Shown: piece after piece, positions 8,300-16,288 of the stretch
How the letters are laid out: each line of letters starts with the position of its first letter
How positions within the stretch are numbered: the first letter of the stretch is position 1
Source: Limnofasciculus baicalensis BBK-W-15
GTDB lineage: Bacteria; Cyanobacteriota; Cyanobacteriia; Cyanobacteriales; Coleofasciculaceae
DNA length: 16,551 nt
Assembly: GCF_024178385.1 (NCBI RefSeq)
Contig: NZ_JAMZMM010000114.1
Span: 1-16,551, forward strand
Reading direction: 5' to 3'
Position numbers and translations under genes: made by a program
The notes under the pieces: generated by a model
What the model saw: the letters and a program-made list of their open reading frames with translations, nothing else
What the model was told of the DNA's origin: nothing
Database searches by the model: none

Positions 8300-9712
8300 T
8301 TAGAATCCCCGTGTCTTTAGACTGGGGAGTGTCAAGTCTTCTGCTTTATTTTGTCTTCCTTTCCCTTCTTGGTTGAGGGGAATTTCAATGGCAAACTCTG
8401 TCCCTTTGCCGATTTCGCTATTAACTGATAACTTTCCTTTATGTTTTTCCACAATAATTTGATAGCTAATAGTCAATCCTAAACCTGTACCGGAGCCAAC
8501 GGGTTTAGTAGTAAAGAATGCGTCAAATAGTCTCCGTTGCACATCTTCTGTCATTCCCGAGCCATTATCGCTAATCCGGATAATTACGAACTCATTCTCA
8601 ATTACCTCAGTTTTAATCTTAATAGTAGGAATTGAGCAAGAGGGCAGAGGTAAATTATTAGGTTCCTGAATAGTTTCCCCATCCCCCTCTTCCAGCACAT
8701 CAATTGCGTTGACCAAAATATTCATAAATACTTGGTTTATTTGACCTGGATGACATCGTAATTTAGGTAAATTACCGTATTCTTTGATCACCTGAATTCT
8801 GGATTTTCCAGCCTTGGCTTTTAGGCGGTGCTGCAATAATAATATCGTGCTGTCTATACCCTCATGAATGTCAGCTAGCTTGCGATGGGCTTCATCAATA
8901 TGGCAGAAATTGCGCAGCAATAGGACAATTTGGCAAATTCTTTCTGCGCCTACCTTCATTGATTTGAGCATTTGTGGCAAGTCTTCTTCTAGAAATTCTA
9001 GGTCAATTTCTTCTATTTTTTCAGTGACTTCTGGATGGGAATTACCATAATTATTATGATAAATTTTAACTAGTTCTAATAGTTGCTGGGTATATTCATT
9101 TGCGAGGCAAAGATTACTGTAGATAAAATTGAGCGGGTTATTAATTTCGTGAGCAACACCCGCTACCATCTGACCAATGCTTGACATTTTATCTGCTTGA
9201 AATAGTTGGGTTTGGGTTTGTTGTAACTTGTACAATGTCTCTTCAAGTTCTAACGCTCTTTGTCGTTCTTTGGCTTGCGATTGCAACAAATCTTCATTTT
9301 GTTCTTCCAGTTGCTTTTGCAGATTTCTTAGGGTTAGATGGGTTTTAACTCGGCACAATACTTCTGTGGGTTGAATTGGTTTAGTAATGTAATCAACTCC
9401 TCCGACATTAAATCCAGTAACTTTATCTGCTGTATCGCAGAGCGCCGTCATAAAAATGACGGGAATGTCTTGGGTTAAGATGTTTGCTTTTAATAGGCTA
9501 CAGGTTTTAAATCCATCAATTCCCGGCATCATTACATCCAGCAGGATCAGATCCGGCTGACTATATTCTGCTTGCTCAATGGCACTTTCACCATCTAGCG
9601 CCACCAAAACCTTAAATCCTGCATCCGTTAAATACTCGAAGATCAACCCTAAGTTTGTCGGGTTGTCATCAACGATTAAGATCTTGCTTGTTCCATTAGT
9701 TTGCTTAGTCAT
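8300..9712 (-). CDS. Response-regulator-receiver-modulated histidine kinase (REC-HisKA-HATPase_c).
   Basis: N-terminal receiver domain (ILIVDDNPTNL...DLILLDVMMPGIDGF...K), a coiled-coil linker, an H-box (VAHEINNPLNF) and a HATPase domain with N, G1 and G2 boxes (NILVNAIDV, ISDNGSGM, GSGTGLGLTIS). Confidence 0.92.
   Translation of the reverse strand: MTKQTNGTSKILIVDDNPTNLGLIFEYLTDAGFKVLVALDGESAIEQAEYSQPDLILLDVMMPGIDGFKTCSLLKANILTQDIPVIFMTALCDTADKVTGFNVGGVDYITKPIQPTEVLCRVKTHLTLRNLQKQLEEQNEDLLQSQAKERQRALELEETLYKLQQTQTQLFQADKMSSIGQMVAGVAHEINNPLNFIYSNLCLANEYTQQLLELVKIYHNNYGNSHPEVTEKIEEIDLEFLEEDLPQMLKSMKVGAERICQIVLLLRNFCHIDEAHRKLADIHEGIDSTILLLQHRLKAKAGKSRIQVIKEYGNLPKLRCHPGQINQVFMNILVNAIDVLEEGDGETIQEPNNLPLPSCSIPTIKIKTEVIENEFVIIRISDNGSGMTEDVQRRLFDAFFTTKPVGSGTGLGLTISYQIIVEKHKGKLSVNSEIGKGTEFAIEIPLNQEGKGRQNKAEDLTLPSLKTRGF
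8307..8327. repeat. Dispersed hairpin repeat ccccgtgtctttagacTgggg (copy 2), embedded in the last codons of the REC-HK gene.
   Basis: Identical to 7970-7990 in 20 of 21 positions. The flanks are loosely similar (tgttgactc versus tgtcaagtc). Confidence 0.7.
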
Positions 9713-9787
9713 ATCCAGTCATTTTTTATATCCGATTCTCTTATTATTTTCTAAATAACACGATTTTAATAAGAACTTAACAATTTA

Positions 9788-13584: not shown

Positions 13585-13621
13585 TACAGCATAGCAAAAG
13601 TTGTCCATTTGTTTCGTAATG

Positions 13622-16288
13622 TCAAGAATTTTTTAAGTTCTCGCCAGAGGATAAACTCGATGTCATGGGAGCAATTAAACCATTAGCTGTGCCAAATAAA
13701 TTAATTGGATTTTTCCCATCGGTAATTAAAACGCTTTGGATGCCAAGTGCTTCTAGGAGCCTCACTTGCATTTCTGGTCCCGCTTGGGCGATCGCAATTA
13801 TCGTTTCTGCGCCAATTGCTGCTATTTTCTGCTGAAATTCGACACTAGTAATTTGAGACATTCGTTCAGCTTTTTCTATTTCCAGAGCGCTGATGGCTTG
13901 TTGATGGGCTAATTCTGCCTCCTGACGTGCTGTCAGTTGTGCTAATTCTGTTTCATAGCGGATGCGAGCAGCGTCTGCTTCTTGCTGTGCCAAATTTACG
14001 GTTAATTCCCCTTGAATCCGAGCAGATTCTGCTTTAGCTTTGGCTTCAGCGGCTGCCTTACCTGTTGCTTCAATTGCTGCATTTTCTGCTTTAAATTCTA
14101 ACAGCTTTTTTCGCTCAACTTCTGCTGCACTTTGATCTACAATTACCTGTCTTTCTAATTTTGCTTTCGCTGTTTGTTCAATCCTTTCCGCATCTTGTCG
14201 TGCGGCAGCTTCTTGAGCATCGGTGGTAATTTGAATGGCAATTTGTACCGATTTTTGCAGGCTTTCTAAAGTCCGTTCATCTACAGGTTCGACGGATTGA
14301 ATGTCAACATTAGTAATAACTAAGTTATTAGTTTTGAAACGTAATTCTTCTCGAATATGATCCTGTTCATCTGTACCAAATACAGCCGCCCGGATAATTC
14401 GGGCTGAATTGCGATGAAATTCATCGAATTTTTCACCTGCTACCGCACCCCGCACGCGAGAAGCAATCGCTTTACAAGCAGTATCCACAAAATCAGGTAC
14501 TTGAAAAAGTTTAGCCGCCACTTGTTCATCATGTCGATCCACATCAAAATACCAGTTATAGGATAAACGTAGCTGCAGTCTGGCATGATCTGATGTCTCG
14601 ACTGCGAACAAATCGGTCATAAAATCAGGACCTAATAATAAGGCTAAAGACTTGATTCGATGCGCTCTTTTTGGTACGCCACCTGATAAACTCAATACAG
14701 TAAATGCCTCATCTGGTCCCAGCATAACTAAGTCTGGACCAAATACAGTTTTAGCTGTTCTTTCCTTATAATCATGGATTTGGACTGCTGCATTTTGCGG
14801 TATATGAAATACCACTGCCCTCGTCTTATCTCGCAGCGAAACTTCCTGGGAGATGGTGGGAGTTACTAATTCCGGCTTTTCTCGATTTTTCTCCTTCATA
14901 AAATGTCGTCCCCGATCGGAAACTGGATCGATTTTTTGATCTAACAATTCTTCCACAACAGGGGAAAGTTCTTTTTCCCAAAGTTCTTCATAAGGACTTA
15001 ACATATAAGCTTGGGGACCGCTGACTAATTTCAGTTCACCAGTTTGAACATCCCTTACATAAATTCCTTCATTTTTATCGAGGGGAATGGCTTGGCGTTT
15101 TTCAATTACCTCTATTTCTACGCGGGGAATGTAATCTCTCGGACCACCAATCATCCACATATCCCCAGGTTGACGTTGAATTAAATTAGTCCCTTCTCCT
15201 TCGCTCAAAGCTTCTTTAGCCTTGAGTAATAGTGCTTCCTGTTCTCCCAAAACATAAACCTGTTGAATCCCCTCTTCTAGTGACTCTCCAGGATGTAAGA
15301 AAAATGAGATTCTTCCTTGACGCACCTCTCGCATTCCTAATTGAGGTTTGCCGGAATTATCGACAGGATTGAGAACAATACACCATTCGCGATCGCCAAG
15401 TGTAGTAATTTCCACTTCTCCTACTACTTCTTCATAGACATCGGGAATGTGAATTTCGGCATCATCAAGGGTAACTAACCACTCATCACCTGCTTTTCTT
15501 TGTCTATTTAAGATATCAGTAAAAGTCCGTTTTGCTCTCAAATGTAATGCCTTTCGTTCAGTTAAAACGTAAGCATTTATAATCCCAATAAACTCTTCAT
15601 CAATTCCCGGTAAATAGGCTCCTTCTTCTCGGAGCAACCATTCTTCTCCTGCTCTTCTGCGATTGCCTGTACGATCGATACAATTTTGTCTCGCTATTAA
15701 ACGTAAAGCTTGATTTGTTTTAATAACTATTGCTTTTGTAGTTGCTGAAACTTGAACTTCTACGCGGGGAATATAGGTTCCTGGCCCTTCAAACAACCAT
15801 TCATCTCCAGCTAAACGATTGATGGTTTGAGGTCGATCTTCTCCGTCAATATTGACTATAATAGGATCGGAAAAATCGCGAATGGCTTTAAGCCGGAGGG
15901 CTTGATTCCGTTCGACAACATGAAGTTGGGTAATCTCCCCAATTAATTCCTCATCGGGATAAAGGGGAAAAGGCTCTTGGGCAAAACGAATTTCGCGATC
16001 GCCATATCTTAGTTTAATCTGTCCATGTCCGTCAGCAATGGGTTGATTGGCTTCATCTCGCAAGACTGGATTGGCAACAATACAATAATATCGCGGTGGG
16101 ACAACGATCATCGGTTCGGGTTTGAGGATGAGTCGTTCGTGATCTCGCAAAGTAATCGTTTGAGGACCGACTTCTAGGCGAGTGACACCTGTATTATTAT
16201 CGAGAACATGGATAAATTGTTGGGGTTTGAGCCGGATAATACCGCTACTAGTTGTAGTTGATTCGGGTTTGCGCTCGGTGGTGTTCAT
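13622..16288 (-). CDS. Major Vault Protein (MVP) homologue. It is full length: the N-terminal MVP repeat domains, the shoulder (SPFH/band-7-like), the cap-helix coiled coil and the cap-ring are all present.
   Basis: 888 aa, against about 893 for human MVP. Long near-identical blocks with vertebrate MVP are recognisable by eye: [12 protein letters not shown] (human PPRHYCTVANPV); [20 protein letters not shown] ([20 protein letters not shown]); [14 protein letters not shown] (GEEWLVTTVGAYLP); [33 protein letters not shown] ([33 protein letters not shown]); [40 protein letters not shown] ([40 protein letters not shown]); and [22 protein letters not shown] ([22 protein letters not shown]). An Ala/Glu-rich coiled coil precedes the cap region. 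Confidence 0.93.
   Translation of the reverse strand: [888 protein letters not shown]

What the first reader, a model, noticed from the sequence alone, without database searches (positions are those of the whole stretch)
8300..16288. MVP gene co-oriented with a five-PAS hybrid sensor kinase and a REC-HK kinase: a possible phosphorelay-coupled vault locus
All three genes are on the minus strand in the order MVP, then a 243-bp gap, then the PAS5-HisKA-HATPase-REC kinase, then a 75-bp gap, then the REC-HisKA-HATPase kinase. The HK-REC kinase followed by a REC-HK kinase is the classic layout of a multistep phosphorelay, and the 75-bp spacer suggests the two are co-transcribed. A cytoplasmic kinase with five PAS sensors next to a vault-shell gene is an unexplained association. 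Whether the kinases regulate, or are regulated with, the MVP gene is pure inference.
Basis: inference. Interest (0 to 1): 0.55.

Follow-up and report, generated by a model that had tools for sequence, protein, structure and literature searches.

The report
Vault-protein gene beside an unrelated kinase pair
A cyanobacterial vault-shell gene sits next to two sensor kinases, but the kinases are an independent, widely conserved signalling pair that lies beside the vault gene only in one small group of relatives, so the adjacency is most likely ordinary.

Summary
Three co-oriented minus-strand genes encode a full-length major vault protein (MVP), a soluble five-PAS hybrid histidine kinase and a REC-DHp-CA kinase, separated by 243-bp and 75-bp gaps. 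The window is a whole contig of the cyanobacterium Limnofasciculus baicalensis.

The proposed vault coupling is not supported.
- The trio is kept only in close relatives (MVP 88-96% identical), together with an unrelated enolase gene.
- None of 71 species-level MVP loci has a histidine kinase within 5 kb downstream, and their neighbours are heterogeneous.
- Orthologues of the kinase pair (60-69% identical) occur in four other lineages with no MVP nearby.
- In assembly UBA8803, MVP and the kinase pair lie on different contigs.
- An aminotransferase gene that directly follows MVP in other genera comes after the kinases in the clade's most divergent members (UBA11166/UBA11366). This suggests the kinases were inserted there.

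The two kinases probably do work together, like Leptospira LvrA/LvrB: a hybrid kinase feeding a receiver-controlled kinase. Neither protein has an HPt domain, so this is not a classic phosphorelay.

One weak hint remains, found only after looking at the data. Non-orthologous REC-first kinases lie just upstream of MVP in three or four other lineages (uncorrected p about 0.01).

The parts
13622..16288 (-). Major vault protein (MVP) homologue, 888 aa, full length. NCBI names it 'colicin uptake protein'.
   Evidence: Pfam Vault, Vault_2/3/4 and MVP_shoulder. Collinear 955-bit alignment to solved mammalian MVP, residues 13-873. 100% match to the Limnofasciculus baicalensis protein P0001.
13379..13621 (-). 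243-bp MVP-to-kinase spacer. It holds variable short tandem heptamers (TAATTGC x4.7 at 13421-13453; CCCCACT x3.6 at 13560-13584). No terminator-like hairpin was found. There is one 9/12 promoter-like match (13556-13527).
   Evidence: (fold z = -0.63). Spacer length varies from 143 to 364 bp among close relatives.
9788..13378 (-). Soluble hybrid histidine kinase, 1196 aa: PAS x5, HisKA (H710), HATPase_c, REC (D1010), then a conserved C-terminal tail.
   Evidence: five sensory_box stretches; motifs, no TM segment. Orthologues are 62-63% identical over residues ~677-1164 at loci without MVP.
11324..13342 (-). Sensor array of five PAS domains (about aa 13-685). PAS3 and PAS5 are a recent internal duplication (76 of 131 residues identical).
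   Evidence: The array varies in size among orthologues, which are 1049-1505 aa long with PAS and/or GAF domains.
10160..11281 (-). Transmitter (HisKA-HATPase_c, aa 700-936) and receiver (aa 962-1073) of the hybrid kinase.
   Evidence: Pfam coordinates. H-box SHELRTP at 709, N, G1 and G2 boxes, and LILMD with D1010.
9884..10141 (-). Conserved ~85-aa C-terminal tail (KMGDIxGI ... QLAKGFKLKQLR..IQQY). It has no conserved His and is not a detectable HPt.
   Evidence: Alignment of nine orthologues. No Pfam Hpt hit even at E<=10. No PDB sequence relative.
9713..9787 (-). 75-bp AT-rich spacer between the two kinase genes. No promoter-like or terminator-like match on the coding strand.
8300..9712 (-). 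Receiver-controlled histidine kinase (Rec-HK), 470 aa: REC (D59), a long helical linker, DHp (H188, AHEINNPL type), CA.
   Evidence: The family is widespread in cyanobacteria (7980 hits at E<=1e-40). Among the listed solved structures, the Rec-HK LvrB (8vc9) is a top-ten sequence hit (E 5.4e-24).
8182..8257 (+). tRNA-Thr(CGU), convergent with the Rec-HK gene. It marks the 3' limit of the kinase unit and is conserved in L072 and L073.

Best explanation
The region holds two functionally separate units that are neighbours only in Limnofasciculus and its close relatives.

Unit 1 is a stand-alone cyanobacterial MVP gene, a member of the already described bacterial MVP group. Its role in bacteria is unknown.

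Unit 2 is an older, conserved two-gene signalling module. A soluble hybrid kinase integrates signals through a fast-evolving five-PAS array and autophosphorylates on H710. It then passes the phosphoryl group to its own receiver (D1010) and/or directly to D59 of the downstream Rec-HK. By analogy with LvrB, phosphorylation of that receiver releases the catalytic domain through the helical linker. The second kinase can then autophosphorylate on H188 and signal to an unlinked, still unknown response regulator.

Shown here: the gene order, domains and catalytic residues; conservation of the kinase pair with and without MVP; and the lack of conserved MVP-kinase linkage.

Inferred: the direction of phosphotransfer, the activation mechanism, and that the module was inserted between MVP and an aminotransferase gene in the clade's ancestor.
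For: 1. Orthologous pairs without MVP. Rec-HK orthologues at 69, 65, 60 and 69% identity (L082/83, L084/85, L086/87 Coleofasciculus PCC 7420, L090 UBA8803) are each preceded by a co-oriented multi-PAS/GAF hybrid HK. In L086/87 a second REC-HK paralogue lies between the two. In L082 and L084 the transmitter-receiver-tail half is 62-63% identical to the window's. L086 aligns over most of its length at 36%. The L090 partner was identified by domain architecture only. No MVP is called within the flank held at any of these loci: 9 kb for L082-L087, but only 296 bp upstream of the hybrid HK in L090.

2. Same genome, unlinked. In GCA_003505715.1, MVP lies between SIMPL and Aminotran_5 genes with no kinase within 10 kb (L089). 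The kinase pair is on another contig (L090).

3. Across 71 species-level MVP loci there is no kinase within 5 kb downstream (0 in 298 kb). Overall HK density is 1.75 per 100 kb of flank. Immediate neighbours are heterogeneous: the top families are pentapeptide repeats in 6 of 62, WD40 in 5 of 62 and Na/H exchanger in 4 of 66.

4. The trio is kept only where MVP is >=88% identical (L072-L075, L077, L080). The retained block also includes the divergently transcribed enolase gene, as expected for plain inherited synteny.

5. An orthologous Aminotran_5 gene (67-73% identical) follows MVP directly in L009/L088 and at 1-7 kb in L012, L024 and L004. In L077/L080 it lies after HybHK, Rec-HK, kynureninase and tryptophan dioxygenase. 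The segment after MVP is therefore variable.

6. Precedent for the mechanism: LvrA H218 phosphorylates LvrB D56 directly, without an HPt (PMC5863495), and Rec phosphorylation activates LvrB through the alpha-S coiled coil (PMC13269768). All phospho-acceptor and ATP-binding motifs are intact in both window proteins.
Against: All three genes are co-oriented, and no terminator-like hairpin separates MVP from the kinases, so read-through co-transcription cannot be excluded.

Within the clade the trio stays intact while the downstream flank changes three times: DUF3493/FHA/RecA, a chorismate-binding enzyme, and kynureninase/TDO.

Non-orthologous REC-first kinases lie close upstream of MVP, co-oriented, in L015 (83 bp), L037/L061 (0.9-1.2 kb), L046 (1.4 kb) and L001/L077 (2.4 kb). 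None occurs in the roughly 600 kb of more distant flank. The rough combined p is about 0.01, uncorrected, for a class chosen after looking.

Phosphotransfer between the two kinases has not been tested.
Confidence: 0.78

Rival explanations
1. The three genes form one regulatory unit. The PAS hybrid kinase and Rec-HK control, or are co-expressed with, MVP, for example by switching vault production on under a sensed condition or by acting on or at the vault shell.
For: The genes are co-oriented, with no terminator-like site in the 243-bp gap. The trio is retained in all clade members with enough contig, across three different downstream contexts. Independent, non-orthologous REC-containing kinases lie directly upstream of MVP in L015, L037/L061/L092, L038 and L046/L099. 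This includes a second 'giant PAS hybrid HK then REC-HisKA then MVP' arrangement in L015, with only 83 bp before MVP.
Against: True orthologues of the pair occur without MVP in at least four lineages, and the two are unlinked in UBA8803. No kinase lies within 5 kb downstream of MVP in 71 species-level loci. Kinase density within 2.5 kb of MVP on both sides (7 in 311 kb) is not clearly above the rest (11 in 719 kb). Neither kinase has a DNA-binding or other output domain that could act on MVP expression. The retained block also includes the enolase gene. The MVP-kinase spacer is filled with variable tandem repeats.
Confidence: 0.1
2. The two kinases are merely adjacent paralogous two-component genes with separate partners, and nothing in the region is functionally coupled.
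For: Two-component genes are abundant in these genomes (1.75 HK per 100 kb of flank). The kinase-kinase spacer ranges from 75 to 619 bp among orthologous pairs. No HPt was detected.
Against: The same ordered, co-oriented pair is kept in orthologues at 60-69% identity in different genomic contexts, while all surrounding genes differ. That is the usual signature of a functional pair. The identical architecture is a proven phosphotransfer pair in Leptospira (PMC5863495).
Confidence: 0.1

Closest known systems
Leptospira LvrA/LvrB (hybrid HK plus Rec-controlled HK dyad; PMC5863495, PMC13269768)
   Same: Two adjacent co-oriented genes. A soluble PAS-containing hybrid kinase (HK-REC) is followed by a REC-DHp-CA kinase with no sensor of its own and a long helical REC-to-DHp linker. 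Neither has a DNA-binding domain and neither has an HPt. Among the listed solved structures, the Rec-HK LvrB is a top-ten sequence hit to the window's Rec-HK (8vc9, E 5.4e-24).
   Different: They are not orthologous. The NCBIfam LvrA and LvrB models score 172 and 128 bits against cut-offs of 1200 and 500. The window kinase has five PAS domains and ends in REC plus a conserved tail, whereas LvrA has one PAS and a second HK module after its REC. The downstream partner (LvrC in Leptospira) is unknown here.
Eukaryotic major vault protein / vault particle (e.g. PDB 4V60, 9Z4W)
   Same: End-to-end collinear homology: repeat domains, shoulder, and the cap-helix region (955 bits, residues 13-873 against 3-850). 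All MVP Pfam domains are present.
   Different: No vault RNA (Rfam) and no TEP1- or vPARP-like gene in the window. Particle formation in bacteria has not been shown. The host is a cyanobacterium.
Previously described bacterial MVP homologues (Moorena producens, Oscillatoria, Allocoleopsis and others; PMC3762200, bioRxiv 10.1101/872010, 10.1101/2023.11.10.566534)
   Same: The window protein is 74-88% identical to MVPs of dozens of filamentous cyanobacteria, including Moorena producens 3L and Allocoleopsis.
   Different: The two preprints read or term-searched here (10.1101/872010, 10.1101/2023.11.10.566534) report no gene-neighbourhood analysis or kinase link. A full-text search for 'major vault protein' plus 'histidine kinase' did not return any of the three papers and found nothing relevant. 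The kinase adjacency is peculiar to the Limnofasciculus/UBA11166 clade.
Tripartite phosphorelay kinases ArcB/BarA/TorS (HK-REC-HPt)
   Same: The transmitter-receiver core gives the best NCBIfam matches (TorS 345 bits, ArcB 308, BarA 301, all far below their cut-offs).
   Different: No HPt domain: no Pfam hit at E<=10 and no conserved His in the tail. No membrane anchor.

Membership tests
Major vault protein family | Vault repeat domains plus the shoulder domain | tested here: met
   PF01505 (213 bits, 4 stretches), PF17794, PF17795, PF17796 and PF11978 (176 bits), all above their cut-offs.
Major vault protein family | Full-length collinearity with structurally solved MVP, including the C-terminal cap-helix region | tested here: met
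   A single 955-bit alignment, query 13-873 against chain 3-850 of 9z4w_A.
Major vault protein family | Assembly into a hollow 78-mer vault particle | not testable with these tools
   Needs expression plus EM or cryo-ET.
Vault ribonucleoprotein (MVP + vault RNA + TEP1 + vPARP) | Vault RNA or TEP1/vPARP genes at the locus | tested here: not met
   The Rfam E-value scan found only HEARO, a tRNA and a chance SNORD22 hit. No TROVE, PARP or VIT domains occur in the window's ORFs.
Classic multistep His-Asp-His-Asp phosphorelay | Hybrid kinase with a phosphorylatable His and Asp | tested here: met
   H710 in SHELRTP and D1010 in LILMD.
Classic multistep His-Asp-His-Asp phosphorelay | An HPt domain or protein between the two receivers | tested here: not met
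   No Hpt hit in either protein or in the tail or linker at E<=10. The tail has no conserved His in nine orthologues. No HPt ORF in the window.
Classic multistep His-Asp-His-Asp phosphorelay | A terminal response regulator with an effector output | tested here: not met
   The second protein's output is a DHp-CA kinase. The window encodes no other REC protein.
Hybrid HK + Rec-controlled HK dyad (Lvr-like) | Adjacent co-oriented genes: HK-REC followed by REC-DHp-CA | tested here: met
   The arrangement is conserved in orthologues.
Hybrid HK + Rec-controlled HK dyad (Lvr-like) | Intact receiver Asp and DHp His in the Rec-HK, joined by a helical linker | tested here: met
   D59 and H188. The 129 residues between them are rich in Q, E, L and K. 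Coiled-coil propensity was judged by eye only, not computed.
Hybrid HK + Rec-controlled HK dyad (Lvr-like) | Direct phosphotransfer from the hybrid HK His to the Rec-HK Asp | not testable with these tools
   Needs in vitro phosphotransfer profiling.
Hybrid HK + Rec-controlled HK dyad (Lvr-like) | Orthology to LvrA/LvrB | tested here: not met
   NCBIfam NF047465 scores 171.9 against a cut-off of 1200, and NF047466 scores 127.9 against 500. The pair works like Lvr but is not a family member.
Conserved MVP-kinase gene cluster (the proposed 'vault locus') | Adjacency conserved across independent MVP-bearing lineages | tested here: not met
   None of 71 species-level loci has the pair, or any HK, within 5 kb downstream. 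The pair is present only where MVP is >=88% identical.
Conserved MVP-kinase gene cluster (the proposed 'vault locus') | The kinase pair depends on MVP (co-occurrence) | tested here: not met
   Orthologous pairs lack MVP nearby. The two are unlinked within one assembly.

The most novel reading that the evidence does not exclude
Bacterial MVP genes may repeatedly recruit receiver-containing histidine kinases as neighbours. Examples are the window clade downstream; L015, L037/L061, L038 and L046 upstream; and a second Rec-HK beyond the enolase gene in the window's own clade. If so, vault-shell production or function in bacteria would be under two-component (Rec-HK) control. That would give the first functional handle on prokaryotic vaults.
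Probability: 0.1. Interest if true: 0.6.

Novelty: new member of a known kind. Interest (0 to 1): 0.2.

Why it matters
The function of vaults is unresolved even in eukaryotes, and nothing is known about bacterial MVPs. A conserved regulatory partner would therefore have been a valuable lead. The evidence here says this locus does not provide one: MVP has no conserved neighbour, and the kinases belong to an independent module.

Two things remain useful. First, the hybrid-HK plus Rec-HK pair is a widespread, conserved cyanobacterial module of the LvrA/LvrB type, with a rapidly changing PAS/GAF sensor array. Second, the segment downstream of cyanobacterial MVP genes is a variable insertion zone. 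The weak recurrence of REC-first kinases near MVP deserves one properly controlled large-scale test before it is dismissed.

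Tried and rejected
- Exact-sequence contig look-ups for the window's MVP and hybrid kinase found nothing. The context came from near relatives instead.
- The metagenome scan for more MVP loci returned mostly 2.5-3 kb contigs holding only an MVP gene 51-58% identical to the window's, with little flank. Only ten contigs were long enough, and they added no independent kinase association: L092 resembles L037, and L099 resembles L046.
- The viral contig scan and the plasmid tblastn found no MVP.
- Promoter and terminator scans were at chance level (22 found against 21.3 expected; 9 against 7.3) and gave no operon call.
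- The 243-bp spacer folds no better than shuffled sequence (z = -0.63). Its conserved ends are no more conserved than the coding DNA of these close relatives.
- I considered a LOV-type flavin PAS because of 'NCRFL' in PAS2. I rejected it because the motif sits at the generic N-x-a-F-x-x-l-x-GY position, not at the LOV Cys position (read from the sequence).
- I considered an HPt or pseudo-HPt for the hybrid kinase's tail. Nothing supports it from Pfam, PDB or a conserved His.
- I considered TEP1-like WD40 partners. The upstream WD40 proteins at four loci are Ser/Thr-kinase-WD40 fusions, and their TEP1 propeller hits are generic and mostly below the Pfam cut-offs.
- I looked for a vault RNA and found none.

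Full report
**What is there**

The window is an entire 16,551-bp contig of the filamentous cyanobacterium Limnofasciculus baicalensis. Its MVP protein is identical to database entry P0001, whose longest contig is 16,551 bp.
- 13622-16288, 888 aa
- 9788-13378, 1196 aa
- 8300-9712, 470 aa

They are separated by gaps of 243 and 75 bp.

The first ORF carries every MVP Pfam domain. It aligns in one block, residues 13-873, with solved mammalian MVP at 955 bits.

The second ORF is a soluble hybrid kinase. It has five PAS domains (five TIGR00229 stretches), followed by HisKA, HATPase_c and REC. H710, the N/G1/G2 boxes and D1010 are intact. PAS3 and PAS5 are a recent duplication (76 of 131 residues identical).

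The third ORF is REC-DHp-CA, with D59, H188 and intact ATP-binding boxes.

A convergent tRNA-Thr(CGU) at 8182-8257 closes the unit and is conserved in relatives.

**Is the MVP-kinase adjacency conserved?**

I fetched 71 species-level MVP loci from GTDB genomes, with MVP 64-88% identical and up to 10 kb on each side.
- None of the window's other genes appears in these loci.
- Only 19 of the 71 show any similarity to either kinase. None has the pair downstream of MVP.
- Clustering all flank ORFs gave no widely shared neighbour. The commonest cluster apart from MVP occurs in 10 of the 72 loci clustered, the window among them.
- Pfam counts over the immediate neighbours are heterogeneous. Upstream, pentapeptide repeats occur in 6 of 62 and WD40 in 5 of 62. 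Downstream, a Na/H exchanger occurs in 4 of 66 and a REC domain in 2 of 66.

HMMs built from the window's kinase core and receiver found 18 kinase genes in 1,030 kb of flank, or 1.75 per 100 kb. None lies in the 298 kb within 5 kb downstream of MVP.

**Where the trio is conserved**

Contig look-ups of the closest MVPs show MVP, hybrid HK and Rec-HK in L072 (96%), L073 (94%), L074/75 (93%), and L077 and L080 (88%). Across this clade the hybrid kinase falls to 63% identity and the Rec-HK to 77%.

The downstream flank differs among them: DUF3493/FHA/RecA, a chorismate-binding enzyme, or kynureninase/TDO. The upstream, divergently oriented enolase gene is retained along with the trio (L073, L077-L080). 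The conserved block therefore includes an obviously unrelated housekeeping gene, as expected for inherited synteny.

**The kinase pair is an independent module**

Rec-HK orthologues at 60-69% identity were located in L082/83, L084/85, L086/87 (Coleofasciculus chthonoplastes PCC 7420) and L090 (UBA8803). In each case a co-oriented multi-PAS/GAF hybrid kinase lies upstream. In L086/87 a second REC-HK paralogue sits between the two.
- In L082 and L084 the transmitter-receiver-tail half of that kinase is 62-63% identical to the window's.
- L086 aligns over most of its length at 36%.
- The L090 partner was identified by its domains only.
- The sensor array differs in length and composition, from 1049 to 1505 aa.
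- No MVP is called in the flank held at these loci.

In assembly GCA_003505715.1 both elements exist but on different contigs. MVP lies between SIMPL and Aminotran_5 genes with no kinase within 10 kb (L089). The kinase pair is on contig DNXU01000372 (L090).

An orthologous Aminotran_5 gene (67-73% identical) directly follows MVP in L009/L088. It lies 1-7 kb downstream in L012, L024 and L004. In L077/L080 it comes after the hybrid HK, Rec-HK, kynureninase and TDO. The simplest reading is that the segment after MVP is a variable zone into which the kinase module was inserted in the ancestor of this clade. This step is inferred.

**How the kinases most likely work**

Neither protein has an HPt domain. 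The hybrid kinase's conserved ~85-aa tail has no conserved histidine and no Pfam or PDB relative. The second protein's output is a kinase. This is therefore not the classic HK-REC, HPt, RR relay.

It matches the 'hybrid HK plus Rec-controlled HK' dyad established for Leptospira LvrA/LvrB. There, LvrA's His phosphorylates LvrB's receiver Asp directly (PMC5863495). Receiver phosphorylation then activates LvrB through coiled-coil formation of the linker helix, and LvrB signals on to a separate regulator, LvrC (PMC13269768).

LvrB is a top-ten sequence hit among solved structures for the window's Rec-HK. The proteins are not orthologous, however, because the NCBIfam Lvr models score far below their cut-offs. 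I therefore file the pair as working like Lvr, not as a member of the Lvr family. The terminal regulator is not encoded in the window.

**Transcription**

Consensus scans give promoter-like and terminator-like counts at shuffle level, with no terminator-like hairpin in either gap. The 243-bp spacer folds no better than shuffled sequence. It contains tandem heptamers that vary among even the closest relatives. The kinase-kinase spacer ranges from 75 to 619 bp in orthologous pairs. Co-transcription of MVP with the kinases can be neither shown nor excluded from sequence alone.

**A residual hint**

After classifying the flank kinases by architecture, every kinase with an N-terminal receiver lies close upstream of MVP and co-oriented:
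- L015: a REC-HisKA protein ends 83 bp before MVP and is preceded by a 2354-aa CBS-GAF-PAS hybrid kinase.
- L037/L061: a REC-PAS-HK lies 0.9-1.2 kb upstream.
- L046: REC-HK-REC-REC proteins lie 1.4 and 3.6 kb upstream.
- L001/L077: a REC-HK lies 2.4 kb upstream.

None of this type occurs in the roughly 600 kb of more distant flank. A rough combined probability for four lineages is about 0.01. However, the class was chosen after looking, the lineages are few, and total kinase density within 2.5 kb of MVP (7 in 311 kb) is not clearly above the rest (11 in 719 kb). These kinases are not orthologues of the window's pair. I could not enlarge the sample. This keeps a low-probability novel reading alive.

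**Comparison with the literature**

Cyanobacterial MVP homologues are already described (PMC3762200; bioRxiv 10.1101/872010; 10.1101/2023.11.10.566534). The two preprints that I read or term-searched report no neighbourhood analysis and no kinase link. A search for MVP together with histidine kinase found nothing relevant.

**Verdict**

The vault coupling is not supported: the adjacency is a clade-specific juxtaposition of two independent units. Interest is low (0.2). Both units are new members of known kinds.

Noticed in passing
window 7768-7998 (-): A full-length HEARO / IscB omega-RNA (RF02033, 143.9 bits, E 1e-30) lies between tRNA-Thr and the DUF3493 gene, with no IscB-sized ORF after it. 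It overlaps the mechanical 120-aa ORF at 7538-7900, which has no family hit and is probably not a gene. It is absent at this position in L072 and L073, while L072 has a copy elsewhere (11751-11979), so it behaves as a mobile element.
   Followed up: partly
window 13421-13453 and 13560-13584; also the contig end at 16520-16551: The MVP-kinase spacer holds short tandem heptamer repeats (TAATTGC x4.7, CCCCACT x3.6). These differ in copy number and type among relatives whose MVP is 93-96% identical. G-rich GGGAG-type sequence also occurs at the contig end upstream of MVP.
   Followed up: partly
L041:7404-9920, L045:609-3128, L063:7313-9850, L065:6428-8809: In four divergent MVP loci (MVP 66-70% identical), a ~840-aa Ser/Thr protein kinase-WD40 fusion sits directly upstream of MVP, co-oriented, at a median of 82 bp. 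Domains were confirmed for three of the four. Its TEP1 beta-propeller Pfam hits are generic WD40 matches, mostly below their cut-offs.
   Followed up: partly
L009/L088:12827-14020, L012:7777-9006, L024:17334-18551, L004:14390-15745, L077:20416-21609: An orthologous class-V aminotransferase (397-451 aa, 67-73% identical) is the most persistent co-oriented downstream neighbour of MVP in this group of cyanobacteria. Variable genes are inserted between the two.
   Followed up: yes
window 9884-10141 (-), aa ~1080-1165 of the hybrid kinase: A conserved C-terminal tail (KMGDIxGI ... QLAKGFKLKQLR..IQQY) follows the receiver in all nine orthologues. It has no conserved His and no Pfam or PDB match, so it is a domain of unknown function.
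   Followed up: partly
L062:10001-12946 (Moorena bouillonii PNG) and L060 (Hormoscilla sp.): The MVP reading frame is split into two ORFs. In L062 the match spans about 300 bp more than usual, with a small reverse ORF in between. This suggests an insertion or pseudogenisation.
   Followed up: no
L006:2014-4911, L022:290-2815, L011:6063-9368, L004:2077-4419: The large co-oriented ORFs just upstream of MVP at other loci are often defence- or signalling-type proteins: NACHT-HEAT STAND NTPase, TIR-WD40, SNF2 helicase and UvrD helicase. Uma2, PIN and DNA methylase genes occur among the downstream neighbours. MVP may tend to sit in variable genomic regions.
   Followed up: no
window 782-1750 (+) and 6316-7107 (-): The same contig also encodes a zinc-ribbon PP2C phosphatase and an FHA-domain protein, both parts of Ser/Thr phospho-signalling. 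The FHA gene stays near the kinase pair in L072 and L073.
   Followed up: no
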